Of a stretch of DNA of 22,748 bases, positions 11,046-22,748 are shown one piece after another; within the stretch, counting starts at the first letter, position 1, and the number at the start of each line of letters is the position of its first letter. A program made the position numbers and the translations under genes. Below the pieces are notes generated by a model that was not told the origin of the DNA, ran no database searches, and saw nothing but the letters and a program-made list of their open reading frames with translations. Source of the DNA: a virus (taxonomy: Duplodnaviria; Heunggongvirae; Uroviricota; Caudoviricetes). The stretch lies in IMG/VR virus record IMGVR_UViG_2534682096_000014; one strand, 5' to 3'.

Positions 11046-11573
11046 TTATTCAGGCTTTTGTGGCCATTCAGGATTTGCCGTATCCACACGGCTGACCAGA
11101 ACACTATAGCGTTCCCATGACTCCAGTCGTGCGCGTTCCTCATCCGTCGCCATATTCAGCCTGACAGCGCGTTCCAGTGGCTGAATAACGTTTTCTGCTT
11201 CGGAAAGTAACGCGGCCTTTTGTGATTCGGCCTGTTGTTGTTGCTCGTCTGCCGTATAAATCCGTTTAACCACAGCTCCGTCCTTAAACATCCACTTACC
11301 GGAATCATCAGCACGACGATTAGCTGTAATATCAGGAACCTCAACGACGCTATAACCTTCAGGGTTAAGCGTGGAGGCATCTTTGGTGATGGCGACAATA
11401 ATATTATTTGCATCGTAAACAATCTTTATTGTGTCTGGCTGAAAGTTTTTCACTTCCTCATACCAGTTTTTTCCGTCTTCGGACCATAACCAGATAACAT
11501 CAAAATTCTTTGTTAGCTGATATTGTTCAACGGTTTTTGGATTACCTGACTTAATGTTTTTTAAATGCTGCAT
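11046..11573 (-). CDS. alternative tail fiber assembly chaperone (Tfa'), silent cassette partner
   Basis: 175 aa; first ~45 residues nearly identical to G, C-terminal third diverged; convergent with G. Confidence 0.8.
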
Positions 11574-11576
11574 AAT

Positions 11577-12566
11577 TTACACCTGCGCAACGTTATACCA
11601 TGTGCCATTGATGTATTTTTGTATTGGTCTGAATACTGCTGGGTCATCACCATCAACTTCACCGACAATACCAAGCCCCGTGATTACATGGCCTGATTTT
11701 TCATACATCACGCCTTTTTGCATGGTCTGAACAACACGTGTGCCAAGTCTGACATCTCTCACATAGCGGGAATCAAAGTTACCGTAATCCGAGGGGTTAA
11801 CACGCCCTGTAATATTTATGGTTTTATTACTTTGAATGCTGCCGGAGACAAAGCGCATAACATGGACGTTATTAGCATAAACATCCAGATACCCGTCGCC
11901 ATTTTGTTTAAATCCCGTGTCATTATCACCCAAAACAATCGAGTTACCGCCAAGAGCACTGGATGTTCCGATACCCAATGCACCATTCAATTGACCGCCA
12001 GATAATGACAACGCCCCAACCTCAGCAGCAGTCGGTTTAATGTGCGAACTGTAAATTACATATACAGTTCCATCTGTCAGGCCTGTTGGTTTATTCGCTG
12101 TATAAGTTGGTGATGTATGAATTTGTACAGTTGCATCCTTTGTATAATCCCACTGGATATTAACACCTGTGGCGTAATTACCTATTTCTACATAAATGTC
12201 ATAGGTATCACCGGATGTATTCACCCATGCAAAATTAGTAAATCCAACCGAGGTCCGTCGCCATAATGCACCAGTAAGACCTTTTGGATTTCCATTTCCC
12301 GCACGAAGAACAAGTTCAGATATACCAGCCTGCATAGGGGAGTTAACATTATATCCAGCACCACCAATCAGACTTATGTAAACCACGGAACTGGCTTGTG
12401 GCATTGTTACAGTTGCCAGTTTGAACCATCCAGCACCACCACTAAAAGACATGGTTGTTGAATTTGTTGTGCCGATATTACGCAGGAATAGTTTTTTATC
12501 GGGAATATCTGCGCCGTTCTGGTTTTTCTGTAATGCGCCAGAAGCCTGATTTACCGTTTCCTGCAA
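11577..12566 (-). CDS. alternative tail fiber C-terminal cassette (H'), promoterless in this orientation
   Basis: Begins inside the right inverted repeat with the same [21 protein letters not shown] junction as H residues ~428-448 (the apparent start is a TTG continuing an upstream reading frame); conserved C-terminal ~60 aa, different middle region. Confidence 0.75.
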   Translation of the reverse strand: MQETVNQASGALQKNQNGADIPDKKLFLRNIGTTNSTTMSFSGGAGWFKLATVTMPQASSVVYISLIGGAGYNVNSPMQAGISELVLRAGNGNPKGLTGALWRRTSVGFTNFAWVNTSGDTYDIYVEIGNYATGVNIQWDYTKDATVQIHTSPTYTANKPTGLTDGTVYVIYSSHIKPTAAEVGALSLSGGQLNGALGIGTSSALGGNSIVLGDNDTGFKQNGDGYLDVYANNVHVMRFVSGSIQSNKTINITGRVNPSDYGNFDSRYVRDVRLGTRVVQTMQKGVMYEKSGHVITGLGIVGEVDGDDPAVFRPIQKYINGTWYNVAQV

Positions 12567-12583
12567 ACCGAGGTTTTAGATAA
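12502..12583. repeat. right inverted repeat of the invertible segment, including a gix/hix-like crossover site (ttcctgcaaaccgaggttttagataa, 12558..12583)
   Basis: Reverse complement matches 9531..9601; the outer site is a near-palindromic 26-mer. Confidence 0.7.
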
Positions 12584-12637
12584 TGGCTGTTTCTGACCTG
12601 CATGGCATGATTTACGCTTTTGGACGGGAGATTCAGC

Positions 12638-13225
12638 GTGCTGATTGGCTATGTAAGGGTATCAACAAATGACCAGAATACAGACCTGCAACGAAACGCT
12701 CTTGTTTGTGCAGGATGTGAACAAATATTTGAAGATAAATTAAGCGGGACAAAGACAGACCGACCGGGATTAAAACGCGCTTTAAAGCGTCTTCAAAAAG
12801 GTGACACGCTGGTTGTCTGGAAACTGGATCGCCTCGGGCGAAGCATGAAACATCTGATTTCTCTCGTCGGGGAACTACGGGAGCGAGGGATTAATTTTCG
12901 CAGTCTGACCGACAGCATAGATACATCTTCTCCAATGGGGCGTTTTTTCTTCCACGTGATGGGTGCCCTGGCTGAAATGGAACGTGAATTAATTGTTGAA
13001 CGTACACTGGCCGGACTGGCGGCAGCGCGCGCACGGGGGCGCACAGGCGGACGTCGACCGAAGCTGACAAAAGAACAGCATGAGCAAATAGCAAGGCTGA
13101 TTAAAAACGGTCACGACAGAAAACAACTGGCAATAATTTACGGCATTGGTACATCGACGATTTATCGTTACCACCCCGCAGGAGAATCAAGCGGAACAAT
13201 AGAGAAGAGTCAGAAAACAAAATAA
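12638..13225 (+). CDS. DNA invertase, serine recombinase of the Pin/Gin/Hin/Cin family
   Basis: VLIGYVRVSTNDQNTDLQRNAL... with the catalytic-Ser motif and a C-terminal HTH; GTG 12638 preceded by GGAG; the ORF track starts at TTG 12620. Immediately adjacent to the invertible segment. Confidence 0.85.
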   Translation: MLIGYVRVSTNDQNTDLQRNALVCAGCEQIFEDKLSGTKTDRPGLKRALKRLQKGDTLVVWKLDRLGRSMKHLISLVGELRERGINFRSLTDSIDTSSPMGRFFFHVMGALAEMERELIVERTLAGLAAARARGRTGGRRPKLTKEQHEQIARLIKNGHDRKQLAIIYGIGTSTIYRYHPAGESSGTIEKSQKTK

Positions 13226-18836: not shown

Positions 18837-18992
18837 AGCTTCAGCCCCTTGTATCCGTTAAATGATTCGGCAACAATCATCACCCACCACGCGCGTAATC
18901 TCACCCCTGCGCCGTTCTCCCGCCACGGCGACAACAAAAAGCAGTAACCCCCTCCGCACGCACATGCGACCATGCCGCACAGGGAGGGAAAG

Positions 18993-20093
18993 ATGACCGA
19001 CACCACCATGCAATTGCTCAGTCAGGGCACAGACCCCGTGAAAATGCCGGATTTTGATATTCTCGCGGAGGGGAAAACGCTGTCCGGCGTGGCAGAGCGC
19101 CTGATGAGTCTGTCACTGACCGACAACCGGGGATTTGAAGCGGACCAGCTCACCATCACGCTGGATGATGCGGATGGTCAGTTGCAGCTACCGCCACGGG
19201 GCGCGCGCCTGACGGTTCTCATTGGCTGGAAAGGAGAACCGCTGACAGAAAAAGGCACTTACATTGTTGATGAAATCGCTCACGAAGGACCGCCGGACAG
19301 GCTGACTGTTTCAGCCAGAAGCGCAGATTTTCGGGATGAATTTAACGTTAAACGTGAGGTGTCCTGGCATGATGTGACCATTGAGCGTGTGGTATCCGCC
19401 ATCGCTCATCGGTATGGTCTGAAACCGCAAATCAGCGAAATGCTGATGGATATCGAAATCGACCACGCCGACCAGACTGAAGAAAGCGACATGTCCTTCC
19501 TTACGCGCATGGCGGAAATGCTGGGCGCAATCACCACGGTAAAAAGCGGTAATCTGTTATTCATCATGCCCGGCGGTGGCGTGAACGCACAGGGCCAGCC
19601 GTTGCCATCGTTCGCCATCACACGCAGCAGCGGCGATCGCCATCAGTTCCGCATTGCTGACCGCGAGGCGTATACGGGTGTACGCGCCTACTGGCTTGAT
19701 CTTAATTACGGGAAAAAGAAAAAAGTCAGCGTGAAACGCCGCAAACCGAAAAAGGAGAAAAGCAGCAGCCGGGAAGGCGACTATATGGAAGGCGCGGAAG
19801 GCAACGTGTTTGTGTTACGCAAGACTTATCAGAACGAGCAGGCAGCAAGACGTGCAGCGGCGGCAAAGTGGCAGCAGCTACAACGCGGAGCCGCAGCGTT
19901 CTCCATCACGCTGGCGTGTGGACGTGCAGAACTCTATCCCGAAATGCATGGCACGGTGACAGGCTTCAAAAGTGACATTGACAATCAGGACTGGATTATT
20001 GCAAAAGCCGAGCACACCATTGACAACAGCGGCTTTACCACTCAGCTTGAGCTTGAAGCAAAAATCCCGGAATGGATAGCAGAAACAGAGTAA
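18993..20093 (+). CDS. D: tail protein D (gpD-like)
   Basis: ORF 18972..20093; ATG 18993 follows GGAGGG by 5 nt; about 366 aa, comparable to P2 gpD. Confidence 0.8.
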   Translation: MTDTTMQLLSQGTDPVKMPDFDILAEGKTLSGVAERLMSLSLTDNRGFEADQLTITLDDADGQLQLPPRGARLTVLIGWKGEPLTEKGTYIVDEIAHEGPPDRLTVSARSADFRDEFNVKREVSWHDVTIERVVSAIAHRYGLKPQISEMLMDIEIDHADQTEESDMSFLTRMAEMLGAITTVKSGNLLFIMPGGGVNAQGQPLPSFAITRSSGDRHQFRIADREAYTGVRAYWLDLNYGKKKKVSVKRRKPKKEKSSSREGDYMEGAEGNVFVLRKTYQNEQAARRAAAAKWQQLQRGAAAFSITLACGRAELYPEMHGTVTGFKSDIDNQDWIIAKAEHTIDNSGFTTQLELEAKIPEWIAETE

Positions 20094-20287
20094 ACAACTT
20101 AGATGCATTAGCCCTGACATTTGTTAACGCGCCTACAGCAAGAATCATAACCAATCTGACAGCCTACCAAGTGTCAAAATCAGAAGTACCTTACATTAGA
20201 ATATGTTAATTTGTAGCAAACAAATTTACACACAAATGATTACTGCTGAAATAGCGCCCATAAATGCCATGTCAGAGGATCCATGTT

Positions 20288-20941
20288 ATGAATATGCAAC
20301 CAGCAGCCACAGTTGCTGCAGTCTGCCTTGCTGCATATTTTGCTTTACGAAATGAACGTAAAAAGAAAGCACTTGAGATTAGAACAACTCAACTAGATCG
20401 AATATCTGAGCTAGTAAACCGAGCATCTACCAATTTGATGCAATATACAGGTAGCCTTGCCTCTATACTGGAAGCGCGCGCCAAAGAAGATTATCGACCG
20501 AACAAAAAATTTGACATTAATGTAATTAGCAAATGGAAAGATTGCCTCGATGAGAGTGAGGTCTGGGCGATTGATATACAGCAACTCAGAGCATGTCAGC
20601 ACAGCCTGGAGTTTCATCGTGAAAAAGAATGGGCTGAATGGAAACAAATAATTCCACCATTACTTGATAAAATTGATCAATTCTTTCTCATATCTAAGCC
20701 AGGGCAACCTGTTACGTTTATAAATAGCCAAAACAAAACAGCTGATGAACTACTTGATTTCTCAAGATATTTGAGAGCTCAAACAGCAGAAATTGAATCA
20801 GTACGTCGGCAGTTACTTTCCCAAATGAGAAAAGAATTCAGCGAGTTGACTAGCTTTAGACCTATCACAATATTTAGCCTATTTAAATCAATAAAGAAAA
20901 ATGTCATGCAATTTTTCTGTATCGGCGCTCTTAAAAATTGA
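20288..20941 (+). CDS. hypothetical membrane-anchored protein, AT-rich cargo (moron) gene, function unknown
   Basis: ORF 20264..20941; ATG 20288 lies 8 nt after AGAGGA; N-terminal hydrophobic segment AATVAAVCLAAYFAL; clearly AT-richer than flanking phage genes; AT-rich upstream intergenic region and downstream hairpin. Confidence 0.5.
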   Translation: MNMQPAATVAAVCLAAYFALRNERKKKALEIRTTQLDRISELVNRASTNLMQYTGSLASILEARAKEDYRPNKKFDINVISKWKDCLDESEVWAIDIQQLRACQHSLEFHREKEWAEWKQIIPPLLDKIDQFFLISKPGQPVTFINSQNKTADELLDFSRYLRAQTAEIESVRRQLLSQMRKEFSELTSFRPITIFSLFKSIKKNVMQFFCIGALKN

Positions 20942-20956
20942 CGCTCTGTTGCAAGC

Positions 20957-20985
20957 AACCCCAGTGTTAAACTGGGGTTATTCTT
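20957..20985 (+). terminator. hairpin (aaccccag tgttaaa ctggggtt) followed by a weakly T-rich tract, downstream of the cargo gene
   Basis: 8-bp stem read directly from the sequence; U-tract is weak. Confidence 0.4.
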
Positions 20986-21090
20986 GCTAAGAGACCTTTC
21001 TACGGCATCAGTAAACAAAGCGAACTATCAGTTGGAGTCTGAGTAAGTTCAGCCTAAACTAGCGACAGTACTACGTTAAGGGAGGTCGCT

Positions 21091-21351
21091 ATGTTTCGTT
21101 GTCCGCTTTGTGGCGCATCTGCCCGTATCCGCACCAGTCGTTCGGAAAATGATTCAGATACCGTGCGGAAAAAATATTACCAGTGTAACAACCTGGAATG
21201 CGGCGTATGCTTCTCAACACTGGAGGCTTTCCATAAATTCACATCGAAACACGCCCCAGGCGTTCACTCTTCAGAGGGCATCCCGTGGAATGAGCTGCCA
21301 GCTTCGCACAGGGGAAACAACCAAATGAGTTTGCCCTTACCTCAGAATTAA
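21091..21351 (+). CDS. ogr: Ogr/Delta-family zinc-finger late transcription activator
   Basis: MFRCPLCG...YYQCNNLEC has the CxxC-N22-CxxxxC arrangement of P2 Ogr; GGGAGG RBS; 86 aa. Confidence 0.8.
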   Translation: MFRCPLCGASARIRTSRSENDSDTVRKKYYQCNNLECGVCFSTLEAFHKFTSKHAPGVHSSEGIPWNELPASHRGNNQMSLPLPQN

Positions 21352-21411: not shown

Positions 21412-21624
21412 ATGGCTGGAGGGAATACCCGAAGGCCAGATGTGGAAAGGCCCCGGAAAACATTTCTGTTTAACCGAGGCCCTGACCATCTAACCTTAGC
21501 AAGTGATAGGTTAGCGCCTCCCCAAAAAAGGAGCAAGCGCTATGTCGCAAAAATCGCTTATGGCCATCACGTTCTGCGTGACGGTAATCCTCATCATCTG
21601 GATGCTGCACGGTTCGCTGTGTGA
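21412..21624 (+). CDS. mok-like overlapping reading frame of the hok-family locus
   Basis: 70-aa ORF overlapping the 5' two-thirds of the hok-like ORF in another frame, as in hok/mok/sok loci. Confidence 0.35.
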   Translation: MAGGNTRRPDVERPRKTFLFNRGPDHLTLASDRLAPPQKRSKRYVAKIAYGHHVLRDGNPHHLDAARFAV

Positions 21625-21682
21625 AATACGGATGAGCTTCTGGGGAGCGGAGTTTGCGGCGTTCTTACAGTGTAAGCAGTAA
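21542..21682 (+). CDS. Hok/Gef-family small membrane toxin (type I toxin-antitoxin)
   Basis: 46 aa MSQKSLMAITFCVTVILIIWMLHGSLCEIR...; single TM helix followed by the SLCEIR motif shared by Hok/Gef/RelF; AGGAG RBS 8 nt upstream; below the 60-aa cutoff of the ORF track. Confidence 0.6.
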   Translation: MSQKSLMAITFCVTVILIIWMLHGSLCEIRMSFWGAEFAAFLQCKQ

Positions 21683-21771
21683 GGAAACCGCGACGGGGGA
21701 GCAATCCCCCGTCAATCGGTTGCTAAGGCTGGCCGAAGTGGCACCCTATCCCATGGACACAAACAAGAAAA

Positions 21772-21802
21772 CCCGCAGCGTAAAAACTGCGGGTTTTCTT
21801 TT
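21772..21802. terminator. rho-independent terminator (cccgcag cgtaaaaa ctgcggg ttttctttt), probably bidirectional
   Basis: 7-bp GC stem followed by a T-run on the + strand; A-run on the other side. Confidence 0.5.
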
Positions 21803-21873
21803 GGAGCTCTCACTTAGCTAGGGTACCGTTAACAACACACATAATGCTCGCAAAACAAACCAGTTAAAAGTGA

Positions 21874-22155
21874 TTACTCAGCATTCTCCTGCTTCCATTG
21901 CCGGATCATTTCATCCGTAACATCACTCTCATAACATACCACGTCATACCCTCCAGTACGGCTATATGCACTGCGTCTACCACATCTACTACCATTCCTT
22001 GCATGATTATAAGGACACGCACAATTGCCTGGATACGATTCAATGGATTCTTTAATTATTTCTTTCTTGATCTGAGCATCAGACTTTCCTGTTGCTGCAT
22101 ACCCACTAAAAGATACCAAACAAAAACAGATTGCCATTAATAAACCACATCGCAT
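21874..22155 (-). CDS. hypothetical small secreted cysteine-containing protein
   Basis: ORF 21874..22269; likely start at the internal Met giving signal-peptide-like MRCGLLMAICFCLVSFSGYAA; CACPYNHARNGSRCG motif; AT-rich. Confidence 0.4.
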   Translation of the reverse strand: MRCGLLMAICFCLVSFSGYAATGKSDAQIKKEIIKESIESYPGNCACPYNHARNGSRCGRRSAYSRTGGYDVVCYESDVTDEMIRQWKQENAE

Positions 22156-22439
22156 ACCGATACACTCTATTACTAACCAATCATAACCCACATCATAAAA
22201 TCGAGATGTGGAGTACAACACCTTTAACAAGAAGGTGTCATAACGATAATATGCCGTGCAATTCATCAAAAAAAAGATCTATATCAAAGAGATAGAGCTC
22301 TTATCAGTGCTGCAGACATCGGCATTCGAGGCAGCAGAAAAACAGTAAATCTGACGATTTTGCCTTTTCTCAGGATGTTGTCAGATTAAAAAAGACAGAT
22401 TAGCGCAGGTACCTTTTGGTGGATGGCAGGAGGAAAAAT

Positions 22440-22545
22440 GAAGTCGAGTGGAAAAATCCCAGAAAAATTTTTGTTTAACCGAGGTCCTAGTTCACTATGC
22501 GAAATACGGAGGAGCTGCAGGAGAATTCGGCTTCATCCTTAGAGT
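22440..22545 (+). pseudogene. decayed second hok-family locus (leader region plus a C-terminal CEIR.. remnant, internal deletion)
   Basis: 22408..22495 is about 75% similar to the hok leader at 21408..21500 (shared gtttaaccgagg(c/t)cct); gaaatacgga matches the hok CEIR-coding region but the N-terminal half is missing. Confidence 0.35.
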
Positions 22546-22623
22546 TTAAACAGCACGTGCACTACTATTGTTTCTGCATATCGCCACACCATCGCCACTC
22601 CACCGCCATTGCACAAAATACAA

Positions 22624-22651
22624 ATACAAAAAAACCACCCGAAGGTGGTTT
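22624..22651 (-). terminator. rho-independent terminator downstream of the tRNA-Leu gene
   Basis: Minus strand reads aaaccacc ttcg ggtggttt followed by tttttgtatttg. Confidence 0.5.
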
Positions 22652-22695
22652 CACGACACTGCTTATTGCTTTGATTTTATTCTTATCTTTCCCAT

Positions 22696-22748
22696 GGTAC
22701 CCGGAGCGGGACTTGAACCCGCACAGCGCGAACGCCGAGGGATTTTAA
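22696..22748 (-). tRNA. leuZ: tRNA-Leu(UAA), 3' portion only (gene continues beyond the window end)
   Basis: Minus strand reads ...TTAAAATCCCTCGGCGTTCGCGCTGTGCGGGTTCAAGTCCCGCTCCGGGTACCA: anticodon loop with UAA, long variable arm, T-arm and ACCA end; matches my recollection of E. coli leuZ. Confidence 0.8.

What the first reader, a model, noticed from the sequence alone, without database searches (positions are those of the whole stretch)
20094..21090. AT-rich cargo (moron) gene of unknown function inserted between tail gene D and ogr
A 218-aa ORF with a good RBS sits in its own AT-rich unit between two conserved phage genes, with an AT-rich upstream region containing promoter-like hexamers (for example tagaat near 20195) and a downstream hairpin. 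The protein has an N-terminal hydrophobic anchor (AATVAAVCLAAYFAL), a helical, charge-rich body and a hydrophobic C-terminal tail, and no motif I can assign. This position and composition are typical of lysogenic-conversion, superinfection-exclusion or anti-phage defence cargo, making it the best candidate here for an undescribed function.
Basis: partly seen in the sequence, partly recalled or inferred. Interest (0 to 1): 0.7.

Follow-up and report, generated by a model that had tools for sequence, protein, structure and literature searches.

The report
Uncharacterised membrane-protein cargo gene in P2-like prophage
A real, optional 217-residue gene has been dropped between the tail gene D and the regulator ogr of a P2-like prophage; it belongs to a small undescribed protein family that hops between phages, plasmids and conjugative elements, often beside anti-phage genes, so it is a reasonable but unproven candidate for a new phage-exclusion protein.

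Summary
A 956-bp AT-rich cassette (window 20104-21059; GC 0.39 against 0.52) lies in a gap that is only 42 bp long in most related prophages. It carries one gene, 20288-20941, 217 aa. The gene evolves under purifying selection (dN/dS 0.26). About 140 bp of conserved upstream sequence travels with it, and a strong hairpin follows it.

The protein matches nothing in Pfam, PADLOC, PHROGs, NCBIfam or PDB sequences. An exhaustive profile search of 1.84 billion proteins found 23 representatives, and every member whose source is named comes from Enterobacterales.

With 24 homologues, AlphaFold gives pLDDT 83. The model shows an N-terminal hydrophobic helix running into a long four-helix bundle, then a basic amphipathic C-terminal helix. 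The fold matches only generic bundles. The N-terminal helix and the stretch just after it are the most conserved part of the family.

Homologues sit as single genes in P2-like and lambdoid prophages, two ICE contexts, plasmids and integrative islands. Neighbours often include PifA, CBASS, OLD-like, TIR and HNH defence genes.

My best reading is an inner-membrane phage-exclusion or abortive-infection protein. That function rests on context and architecture only. Confidence is about 0.4 for the function and above 0.9 for "genuine cargo gene of an undescribed family".

The parts
18972..20093 (+). gpD (late control / baseplate hub gene). Conserved left flank of the insertion site.
   Evidence: PF05954 Phage_GPD, E 2.6e-17. 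Annotated as late control D / VgrG-Pvc8 family in related prophages.
20104..21059 (+). Inserted 956-bp AT-rich cargo cassette. Absent from most related prophages.
   Evidence: Homology with the empty site (L016) ends at 20103 and resumes at 21060. GC 0.388 against 0.524 for the whole window.
20146..20287 (+). Upstream non-coding region that travels with the gene. Probably holds the promoter and 5' UTR.
   Evidence: blastn homology with the Kluyvera lambdoid-prophage copy (76% identity) starts at 20146 and ends at 20948. Alignment.
20187..20204 (+). TAGAAT (20187-20192) overlapping the invariant block GAATATGTTAATTTGT (20189-20204). Candidate -10 / regulatory element.
   Evidence: Identical in the window, E2348/69 and the Kluyvera copy. 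Aligns with a TATAGT element upstream of the second clade. Not called by the consensus promoter scan.
20274..20279 (+). Ribosome-binding site AGAGGA, 8 nt upstream of the ATG.
   Evidence: Sequence. Conserved in the Kluyvera copy.
20288..20941 (+). CDS of 217 aa. Member of an undescribed Enterobacterales family carried on mobile elements.
   Evidence: ORF. dN/dS 0.26 at dS 0.67 against the Kluyvera copy. Homologues. No hit in Pfam, PADLOC, PHROGs, NCBIfam or PDB sequences.
20300..20386 (+). Codons for residues 5-33: the N-terminal hydrophobic helix (5-20) plus the basic juxtamembrane stretch RNERKKKALE. This is the most conserved part of the family.
   Evidence: 3.2 bits per position against 2.18 overall. 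A16, L20, K26 and K27 are invariant. Hydropathy.
20870..20938 (+). Codons for residues 195-217: C-terminal basic amphipathic helix carrying the conserved FF motif (F209).
   Evidence: AF2 helix 195-215. Mean KD 1.05, hydrophobic moment 0.99. Not a membrane span on the Hessa-type sum.
20944..20993 (+). Strong stem-loop after the stop codon (core 20957-20979). Terminator-like, but with a poor U-tract.
   Evidence: 9-bp stem, 5 GC pairs. (-26.7 kcal/mol, z -5.6).
21015..21059 (+). Short segment shared by all three 'filled' versions of the D-ogr gap and absent from the empty site. It ends in an imperfect copy of the end of D (GAGTAA..CA.C.TA.A).
   Evidence: blastn right-hand homology with L017 and L018 starts at 21016 and 21015. 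With the empty L016 it starts at 21060. Alignment.
21091..21351 (+). ogr (late-gene activator). Conserved right flank.
   Evidence: PF04606 Ogr_Delta, E 2.4e-14.

Best explanation
**Shown.** Window 20104-21059 is an independently acquired single-gene cassette (moron) in a variable site between gpD and ogr of a Xuanwuvirus-type P2-like prophage. It encodes a 217-aa protein under purifying selection. The protein belongs to a small, previously undescribed family that occurs as a stand-alone gene on many kinds of mobile element in Enterobacterales.

**Inferred from the model and the sequence.**
- The protein is bitopic, with a very short N-terminus outside the cell.
- A weakly hydrophobic but highly conserved helix (residues 5-20) lies in the inner membrane.
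- A basic juxtamembrane stretch (RNERKKK) follows it.
- A four-helix bundle, roughly 70 Angstrom long by my estimate from helix lengths, sits in the cytoplasm.
- A basic amphipathic C-terminal helix returns to the inner leaflet.
- The invariant residues (A16, L20, K26, K27, H110, W118) and the near-invariant N22 would cluster at the membrane-proximal end.
- There is no enzymatic fold.

**Inferred from context.** The protein is made in the lysogen, from its own upstream region and/or by read-through from the D/ogr promoter region. It protects the element-bearing cell against incoming phages or other mobile elements by acting at the inner membrane. The conserved membrane module is the effector. 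It either oligomerises to permeabilise the membrane (abortive infection) or blocks genome entry (superinfection exclusion). The more variable distal bundle senses or regulates. I favour the sensor-plus-membrane-effector (abortive) version slightly, because the family is also carried by plasmids, ICEs and chromosomal defence islands.
For: **Insertion and polymorphism:**

**Foreign composition:**

**Real coding gene:** dN/dS 0.25-0.26 at dS about 0.65.

**A self-contained unit.**
- 142 bp of upstream sequence is co-conserved between a P2-like and a lambdoid context.
- Clade-2 copies likewise share about 150 nt of upstream sequence with a TATAGT element.
- No partner gene is shared between contexts.

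**Distribution.**
- Found in 58 of 5426 complete E. coli genomes. Every copy examined lies in the D-ogr gap, in prophages integrated at different chromosomal sites.
- Homologues occur in two lambdoid prophages, ICEs, plasmids next to Rep3/RepE, an ssrA island and a cysH-side island.

**Defence genes within 10 kb, confirmed with PADLOC.**
- PifA, in two separate contexts.
- CBASS cyclase with an S_4TM effector, in two separate contexts.
- An OLD/AriA-like ATPase.
- A PDC-S35 TIR protein.
- An HNH / type IV-like nuclease.
- A Ppl-like ATPase.
- Pfam additionally marks nSTAND, RES and HipA neighbours.
- One alternative occupant of the same D-ogr gap has a sub-threshold HEPN_RiboL-PSP match, E 1.2e-4.

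**Architecture.**
- AF2 pLDDT 83.4, pTM 0.69.
- Positive charges follow the hydrophobic helix.
- The N-terminal helix plus juxtamembrane segment is the best conserved region.

**Possible expression in lysogens.** ogr of a Salmonella P2-like prophage is transcribed in lysogens under all conditions tested (PMC7067206). No terminator separates D from the cargo.
Against: - There is no experimental or homology evidence for any function. Association with defence genes is qualitative, has no background control, and is expected to some degree for any cargo on a mobile element.
- The N-terminal segment is only marginally hydrophobic across the family. A crude Hessa-type sum gives about -0.2 to +5 kcal/mol for 19-mers. 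Membrane insertion is therefore not certain.
- The window's allele has lost 4 residues there.
- No sigma-70 consensus promoter was found in the upstream gap. Expression in lysogens is untested.
- Several copies are decaying: a frameshift in phage 520873, an IS1 insertion, and half-copies.
- Many contexts lie next to replication or partition genes. That would also fit a maintenance role.
- PADLOC v2 and PHROGs do not contain the family.
Confidence: 0.4

Rival explanations
1. Lysogenic-conversion or host-fitness membrane protein unrelated to phage defence. It would alter envelope physiology, stress tolerance, division or colonisation in the lysogen.
For: - It is a stand-alone AT-rich moron with a membrane-associated, non-enzymatic architecture.
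- It is present in pathogens such as EPEC E2348/69 and O55:H7 CB9615.
- In the Kluyvera lambdoid prophage its neighbours include PerC-like and colicin-domain genes.
Against: - The family is rare: about 1% of complete E. coli genomes, 12 of 72,556 plasmids, and 4 loci among 185,579 species representatives.
- It is spread over very different elements and hosts, including plant-associated Erwiniaceae. That argues against a niche-specific trait.
- The bulk of the protein is predicted to be cytoplasmic, not surface-exposed.
Confidence: 0.2
2. Element-maintenance or addiction function. The protein would be a membrane-active toxin-like or tethering protein that stabilises the plasmid, prophage or ICE that carries it. 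Examples are post-segregational killing with an unseen RNA antitoxin, or membrane anchoring of replication or partition.
For: - It sits directly downstream of Rep3/RepE initiators and before a tyrosine recombinase on at least five plasmids.
- It follows ParA/ParG-like genes.
- It follows HipA in one ICE type, seen in two loci from different sources.
- It lies next to phage replication genes in lambdoid prophages.
- In this prophage a hok/mok module lies just beyond ogr.
- A promoter-like site lies on the minus strand inside the ORF at 20517-20490.
Against: - No conserved partner or antitoxin gene exists.
- At 217 aa with a structured bundle, it is unlike type I toxins.
- It is optional in otherwise near-identical prophages, which are evidently maintained without it.
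- One plasmid carries two paralogues, one of them in a defence cluster far from rep.
- The minus-strand promoter is a bare 9/12 consensus match within chance expectation: 4 found, 2.6 expected.
Confidence: 0.15
3. Phage-serving late function or counter-defence. The protein would be expressed with the tail operon during lytic growth to modulate lysis timing or exclusion during the lytic cycle, or to counteract a host defence.
For: - It has the same orientation as D and ogr, with no terminator between D and the ORF. Late transcription from the D promoter should therefore read into it.
- The weakly hydrophobic, Ala/Thr-rich N-terminal helix resembles signal-anchor-release or holin-regulator segments. 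This comparison is from my own knowledge and was not tested.
Against: - The same family sits on plasmids, ICEs and chromosomal islands that have no lytic cycle.
- It carries its own conserved upstream region.
- The charge distribution predicts a cytoplasmic bundle, not a periplasmic one.
- Anti-defence proteins are usually small and soluble (own knowledge).
Confidence: 0.1
4. In this particular window the gene is a decaying or inactive allele of the family. Whatever the family does, this copy may not do it.
For: - It carries a 12-nt in-frame deletion that shortens the hydrophobic helix from 20 to 16 residues. This is a minority allele: 2 of 58 genomes, and a cluster of 11 members against clusters of 138 and 37 for two of the full-length forms.
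- The 99.2%-identical copy in phage 520873 is frameshifted.
- dN/dS against the E2348/69 allele is higher, 0.53, on few substitutions.
Against: - The reading frame is intact.
- All invariant residues are retained.
- The deletion lies N-terminal to the conserved Pro5. Other clades have only 3-4 residues there.
Confidence: 0.15

Closest known systems
P2 accessory exclusion genes old, tin and Z/fun, and the defence hotspots of P2-like prophages (gpA-gpQ; within the tail genes; tail protein-CI / int region)
   Same: It is an optional, AT-rich, single-gene cargo in a variable site flanked by conserved P2-like genes. These hotspots are known reservoirs of anti-phage systems (PMC9122126; PMC9519451; PMC13586616). 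[quoted passage not shown]
   Different: It occupies a different site, the 42-bp D-ogr gap. It has no sequence similarity to Old or any other PADLOC model. None of the papers searched mentions ogr or this protein.
Small inner-membrane phage-exclusion / abortive-infection proteins encoded by (pro)phages and plasmids (lambda RexB, P22 SieA, T4 Imm, HK97 gp15, lactococcal AbiP). Recalled from my own knowledge.
   Same: It is a non-enzymatic, membrane-associated protein from a mobile element, able to act without a partner gene. AbiP in particular is described as an N-terminally anchored protein with a cytoplasmic domain.
   Different: There is no detectable homology: only 23 relatives in 1.84 billion proteins, none named, and no PHROG hit. 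The predicted architecture is different, with one marginal TM helix plus a long four-helix bundle. The family is also carried by plasmids, ICEs and islands.
Transmembrane effectors of signalling defence systems (CBASS S_4TM / 2TM effectors and similar)
   Same: It has an N-terminal membrane segment plus a cytoplasmic regulatory domain. Two diverged homologues lie about 550 bp upstream of a CBASS cyclase plus S_4TM pair.
   Different: Most family members, including this one, have no cyclase nearby. The adjacent CBASS operons already have their own effector. There is no SAVED or other nucleotide-sensor domain.
Four-helix-bundle sensor domains of chemoreceptors and histidine kinases (Tar/Tsr, NarX/NarQ, QseE; 4HB_MCP)
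   Different: There is no HMM match to 4HB_MCP or any Pfam family. De novo designed bundles score equally well, so the similarity is generic. The charge distribution puts this bundle in the cytoplasm. There is no second TM helix and no output domain.

Membership tests
Prophage moron / hotspot cargo | Presence/absence polymorphism between conserved flanking phage genes | tested here: met
   Empty 42-bp D-ogr gap in most related prophages. This gene or one of two unrelated single genes occupies the gap in others.
Prophage moron / hotspot cargo | Base composition distinct from the surrounding phage genes | tested here: met
   GC 0.379 and GC3 0.298, against 0.543 and 0.607 for gpD.
Prophage moron / hotspot cargo | Own promoter and terminator (autonomous transcription unit) | tested here: inconclusive
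   The upstream 142 bp co-migrates with the gene and holds an invariant 16-nt block. No consensus sigma-70 site is called there. A strong hairpin follows the gene but its U-tract is poor.
Prophage moron / hotspot cargo | Expression from the repressed prophage | not testable with these tools
   Indirect only: ogr of a Salmonella P2-like prophage is expressed in lysogens (PMC7067206).
Known anti-phage defence families (PADLOC-DB v2.0.0, including Old, PifA, Abi and PDC candidates) | Significant match to a family HMM | tested here: not met
   Best hit is REase_II at E 0.012 over 33 residues. No family is shared by more than 3 of 24 homologues.
Any curated protein family (Pfam-A, NCBIfam, PHROGs) or solved structure by sequence | Match above the curated cut-off | tested here: not met
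   Best Pfam E-value is 0.21, NCBIfam 0.031, PHROGs 0.093. PDB profile searches give E 0.38 or worse.
4HB_MCP-type sensor domain | Periplasmic four-helix bundle between two TM helices, coupled to a cytoplasmic output | tested here: not met
HEPN RNases (considered because of the invariant H110, the adjacent R111, and a HEPN-like alternative cargo at the same site) | Conserved Rx4-6H motif in a HEPN helical fold | tested here: not met
Hok/Gef-type or other type I membrane toxins | Small (under 60 aa) hydrophobic peptide with overlapping antisense-RNA control | tested here: not met
   The protein is 217 aa with a structured bundle. No Rfam family appears in the window. The true Hok/Gef ORF is a separate gene at 21542-21682.
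Classical superinfection-exclusion proteins (SieA/SieB, Imm, Sim, gp15) | Block of incoming phage DNA entry without cell death | not testable with these tools
   No sequence relationship was found. The functional criterion needs infection assays.

The most novel reading that the evidence does not exclude
The gene founds a new single-protein immunity family of Enterobacterales mobile elements. A conserved N-terminal membrane helix plus basic juxtamembrane patch would act as a membrane-disrupting or entry-blocking effector. A rapidly diverging cytoplasmic four-helix bundle, which would sense phage infection, would keep it in check. The whole module would be exchanged as a promoter-plus-gene cassette between P2-like phages, lambdoid phages, plasmids and ICEs.
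Probability: 0.3. Interest if true: 0.65.

Novelty: new variant of a known kind. Interest (0 to 1): 0.45.

Why it matters
Most recently discovered anti-phage systems came from variable hotspots of P2-like prophages. The 42-bp D-ogr gap is not mentioned in the hotspot papers I could search. Here it turns out to hold at least three alternative single-gene cargos.

The occupant in this window defines a protein family with no annotation in any of the libraries searched here. Even so, it has a confident predicted architecture, clear purifying selection, and a distribution across phages, plasmids, ICEs and defence islands.

If it is a defence or exclusion protein, it would be a compact (0.65 kb) non-enzymatic membrane-acting system. 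It has an obvious set of point mutants to test (T8, N22, K26/K27, H110, W118) and a natural 4-residue deletion allele for comparison. If it is not, it is still a well-delimited example of cassette exchange between unrelated mobile elements.

Tried and rejected
**Homology to known families.** All of these were negative.
- Single-sequence and per-member scans of Pfam, PADLOC, PHROGs and NCBIfam.
- PDB sequence profiles.
- An exhaustive HMM search of 1.84 billion representatives.
- A profile search of 5.8 billion proteins.

**Structure.**
- The first AF2 run, with 5 close sequences, was unusable (pLDDT 50). I did not use it.
- The second run, with 24 sequences, was good.

**HEPN idea, prompted by the invariant H110 and the adjacent R111.** Rejected, because the upstream R is not conserved and there is no HEPN fold.

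**Functional link to CBASS.** Two homologues lie upstream of SMODS plus S_4TM. I rejected this as a general rule. The adjacency is absent from the other contexts, and the two parts diverge at different rates, 76% against 86% nt identity.

**Conserved partner gene.** None was found by locus-against-locus blastn.

**RNA elements.** No Rfam or tRNA feature appears in the window.

**Literature.** There is no mention of the protein accession (WP_001057121) or of a D-ogr cargo. One search failed on a too-short term.

**Broader locus harvest.** The profile A2 was too diverse to back-translate. A3 gave only 4 loci among species representatives.
Full report
**1. The observation**

It runs from ATG 20288 to the stop at 20939-20941 and encodes 217 aa. 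AGAGGA lies 8 nt upstream of the ATG.

A longer reading from ATG 20264 (225 aa) is unlikely. In the Kluyvera homologue that ATG opens a 4-codon mini-ORF, while the downstream ATG, the RBS and the protein are all conserved.

GC drops to 0.35-0.42 across about 20000-21050. It is 0.50-0.60 in gene D and about 0.50 in ogr. The CDS has GC3 0.30, against 0.61 in D.

gpD (18972-20093) matches PF05954 and ogr (21091-21351) matches PF04606.

A strong stem-loop follows the stop codon. Its core is 20957-20979, and the extended fold is -26.7 kcal/mol with z = -5.6. Its U-tract is poor.

TAGAAT is at 20187-20192. The consensus scan calls no sigma-70 promoter in the 194-bp gap upstream of the ORF.

**2. It is an insertion in a variable site**

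- The flanks match 1203 of 5426 complete E. coli genomes, but only 52 carry the whole stretch.
- I looked at 40 records taken at even steps down the ranking. About 23 have D and ogr separated by only about 42 bp, 2 have this gene, 1 has an unrelated 201-aa ORF, 2 have an unrelated 340-aa ORF on the other strand, and the rest match only ogr.
- Against the empty site (strain RM8082), homology stops at 20103 and resumes at 21060. The cassette is therefore 956 bp.
- The three filled versions share a further 45 bp (21015-21059) that the empty site lacks. This segment ends in an imperfect copy of the last bases of D.
- The 340-aa alternative cargo has a sub-threshold HEPN_RiboL-PSP match, E 1.2e-4. 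Neither alternative matches PADLOC.
- With the cargo alone as query, 58 of 5426 genomes carry it, all on chromosomes. They fall into three allele groups at 100%, about 94% and about 88% nt identity.
- Every copy examined is in the D-ogr gap. The host prophages are integrated at different chromosomal sites, for example next to ihfA in E2348/69 and next to serS in strain 1190.
- One copy is split by IS1, some are half-copies, and the copy in phage 520873 is frameshifted.

**3. It is a real gene and a self-contained unit**

Against the 76%-identical Kluyvera copy, dN/dS is 0.26 at dS 0.67.

That copy sits in a lambdoid prophage, in the accessory region between the replication genes and Q. Homology between the two contexts runs from 20146 to 20948. 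That covers 142 bp of upstream sequence plus the ORF, but not the hairpin.

Within the upstream part, GAATATGTTAATTTGT (20189-20204) is invariant. Members of a second clade likewise share about 150 nt upstream, with a TATAGT element at the aligned position.

Locus-against-locus blastn finds no other gene shared between contexts.

**4. The family**

- There is no significant hit in Pfam, PADLOC v2, PHROGs, NCBIfam or PDB sequences. This holds for the protein alone and for 24 homologues scanned one by one.
- A word-seeded search of 5.8 billion proteins found 7 close relatives in E. coli and Kluyvera.
- An exhaustive profile search of 1.84 billion 50%-identity representatives found only 23 with E <= 1e-3.
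- A second profile search returned 29 clusters. All that carry a name are 'hypothetical', and all are from Enterobacteriaceae.
- tblastn adds a few Erwiniaceae plasmids, 12 of 72,556 plasmids in all.
- A scan of one genome per species found 4 loci.

The family is therefore rare, narrow and undescribed. I found no paper that mentions it.

**5. Structure**

With 5 close sequences AlphaFold was uninformative (pLDDT 50). With 24 diverse homologues it gave pLDDT 83.4 and pTM 0.69.

| Element | Residues |
|---|---|
| Helix 1 (one long helix) | 5-67 |
| Helix 2 (two segments) | 77-89 and 97-110 |
| Helix 3 | 112-132 |
| Loop with a short hairpin | 133-151 |
| Helix 4 | 152-188 |
| C-terminal helix | 195-215 |

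- Foldseek against the PDB and BFVD finds nothing significant. The fold is a generic elongated four-helix bundle with no enzymatic signature.
- From the helix lengths I infer that residues 5 to about 29 project beyond the bundle.
- The hydrophobic stretch is marginal as a membrane span. Kyte-Doolittle 19-mer maxima are 1.3-2.15, and a crude Hessa-type sum is about -0.2 to +5 kcal/mol.
- In this allele a 12-nt deletion removes four residues just before the conserved Pro5.
- Net positive charge follows the segment, +4 in this clade. The N-tail is short and neutral or acidic. By the positive-inside rule (established knowledge) this predicts N-terminus out and bundle in the cytoplasm.
- The C-terminal helix is basic and amphipathic, not a membrane span.
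- Residues 5-33 are the most conserved part of the family, at 3.2 bits per position against 2.18 overall.
- A16, L20, K26, K27, H110 and W118 are invariant. P5, T8 and N22 are nearly so. A passive anchor would not be conserved in this way.

**6. Contexts of homologues**

| Context | Position of the family gene | Notable neighbours |
|---|---|---|
| C. braakii lambdoid prophage | After the replication gene | |
| Kluyvera lambdoid prophage | In a small island | Colicin-domain gene, PerC-like gene |
| ICE type 1 (two loci) | Directly after HipA | McrA-like HNH nuclease; SMC-like ATPase |
| Salmonella ICE | Between TraC and TraU | |
| Plasmids (several) | Between Rep3/RepE and a convergent tyrosine recombinase | |
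| Plasmid | After ParA | |
| K. michiganensis plasmid | Two paralogues | |
| K. aerogenes island at ssrA | | |
| Pseudescherichia island beside cysH | | |

PADLOC confirms the following among neighbours within 10 kb:
- PifA in two contexts (E 1e-257 and 1e-302);
- a CBASS cyclase (E 2e-149), scanned in one locus and 86% nt-identical in a second, each beside an S_4TM effector (Pfam);
- an OLD/AriA-like ATPase;
- a PDC-S35 TIR protein;
- an HNH / type IV-like nuclease;
- a Ppl-like ATPase.

Pfam also marks nSTAND, RES and KAP NTPase neighbours.

**7. What it most likely does**

*Shown.* It is an optional, horizontally exchanged, selected single-gene cassette that encodes a helical-bundle protein with a conserved hydrophobic N-terminus.

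*Inferred.* It is an inner-membrane protein made in lysogens. It benefits whatever element carries it by interfering with incoming phages or other elements. I see two variants.
- The conserved membrane module permeabilises the membrane when the variable bundle detects infection (abortive infection).
- The protein blocks genome entry (exclusion).

I slightly prefer the first, because plasmids, ICEs and chromosomal islands carry the family too.

Transcription could come from its own upstream region. It could also come from the region at the end of D that must drive ogr in the empty-gap prophages. ogr of a Salmonella P2-like prophage is expressed in lysogens (PMC7067206), and nothing terminator-like separates D from the ORF.

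My confidence in the functional class is about 0.4. My confidence in "genuine cargo gene of an undescribed family" is above 0.9.

**8. Rivals**

- A host-fitness membrane protein, about 0.2.
- A maintenance or addiction function, suggested by the frequent neighbourhood of rep/par genes, HipA and hok, about 0.15.
- A phage-serving late or counter-defence function, about 0.1.
- Not exclusive of the others: this allele may be impaired by its 4-residue deletion, about 0.15.

**9. Comparison with what is known**

It behaves like the cargo of the known P2 hotspots (old/tin, Z/fun), as described in PMC9122126, PMC9519451 and PMC13586616. It sits at a site that those papers do not mention. The iLund4u preprint's 'third hotspot between a tail protein and CI' may include it. 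It matches no defence model.

In architecture it recalls small membrane exclusion or abortive-infection proteines and TM effectors of signalling systems. It is not a member of any of them. Its fold resembles 4HB sensor domains only generically.

**10. Verdict**

The novelty lies in the protein family and in the recognition of the D-ogr gap as a small cargo site. The category itself, prophage hotspot cargo and probable inter-element conflict gene, is familiar.

Interest is 0.45. It is a good, cheap experimental candidate, and a specialist would not find it surprising.

Noticed in passing
window 21412-21682: A hok/mok-type toxin module lies just downstream of ogr. It has a 46-aa Hok/Gef ORF (21542-21682; PF01848, E 3e-7) overlapped by a 70-aa mok-like ORF (21412-21624). 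Related prophages annotate the same gene. Rfam called no sok-type RNA at gathering threshold.
   Followed up: partly
window 22462-22495 vs 21458-21490: A second copy of the hok-leader-like sequence (tttgtttaaccgagg.cct) lies outside the apparent prophage end. It may be a remnant of an earlier P2-like prophage or hok locus at the same site.
   Followed up: no
window ~21750-22748: Homology to related phages ends near 21750. Beyond it lies an AT-rich 131-aa minus-strand ORF (21874-22269; phrog_27544, E 4e-58, unknown function, Cys-rich C-terminus). At the very end (about 22698-22748, minus strand) is the 3' part of what looks like a tRNA-Leu gene cut by the window edge. ARAGORN finds nothing because the gene is truncated.
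   Followed up: partly
window 21015-21059 and 20085-20103: All three 'filled' versions of the D-ogr gap share a 45-bp right-hand segment that the empty site lacks. It ends in an imperfect direct repeat of the end of gene D (GAGTAA..CA.C.TA.A). This may be a footprint of how cassettes are swapped at this site.
   Followed up: partly
window 20288-20302 (codons 1-5): The window's allele has a 12-nt in-frame deletion (loss of 'IFIA') relative to the common E. coli alleles. The nearly identical copy in Escherichia phage 520873 is additionally frameshifted. One genome (AR_0128) has the gene split by IS1.
   Followed up: yes
L017 747-1352 (+) and L018 715-1737 (-): Two other unannotated single-gene cargos occupy the same D-ogr gap. 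One is a 201-aa protein in O157:H7 ECP19-2498 (WP_000069998.1) with no hit at all. The other is a 340-aa protein in IHE3034 (WP_000532200.1) with a sub-threshold HEPN_RiboL-PSP match. Both are candidates in their own right.
   Followed up: partly
L007 1265-2065 and 8001-8780: One Klebsiella michiganensis plasmid carries two diverged paralogues of the family. One lies directly after the Rep3 initiator and near a pifC-like/PifA pair. The other is embedded in a cluster with a TIR protein, CBASS and a RES toxin.
   Followed up: partly
L003 8001-11199 and L007 8001-11233: In two unrelated replicons a family member lies about 550 bp upstream of a CBASS cyclase plus S_4TM pair. The family genes are 76% nt identical and the CBASS genes 86%. 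The adjacency is not general, but it recurs.
   Followed up: partly
L009 6360-8672 and L026 8521-10648: In one ICE type, seen in two loci from different sources, the family gene directly follows a HipA-like kinase gene for which no HipB-like gene was called upstream.
   Followed up: no
window 11046-13225: A serine invertase (12620-13225; PF00239 plus HTH_7) lies next to an oppositely oriented tail-fibre assembly gene (11046-11573) and a 329-aa ORF. This is the usual invertible tail-fibre host-range switch of this phage group.
   Followed up: partly
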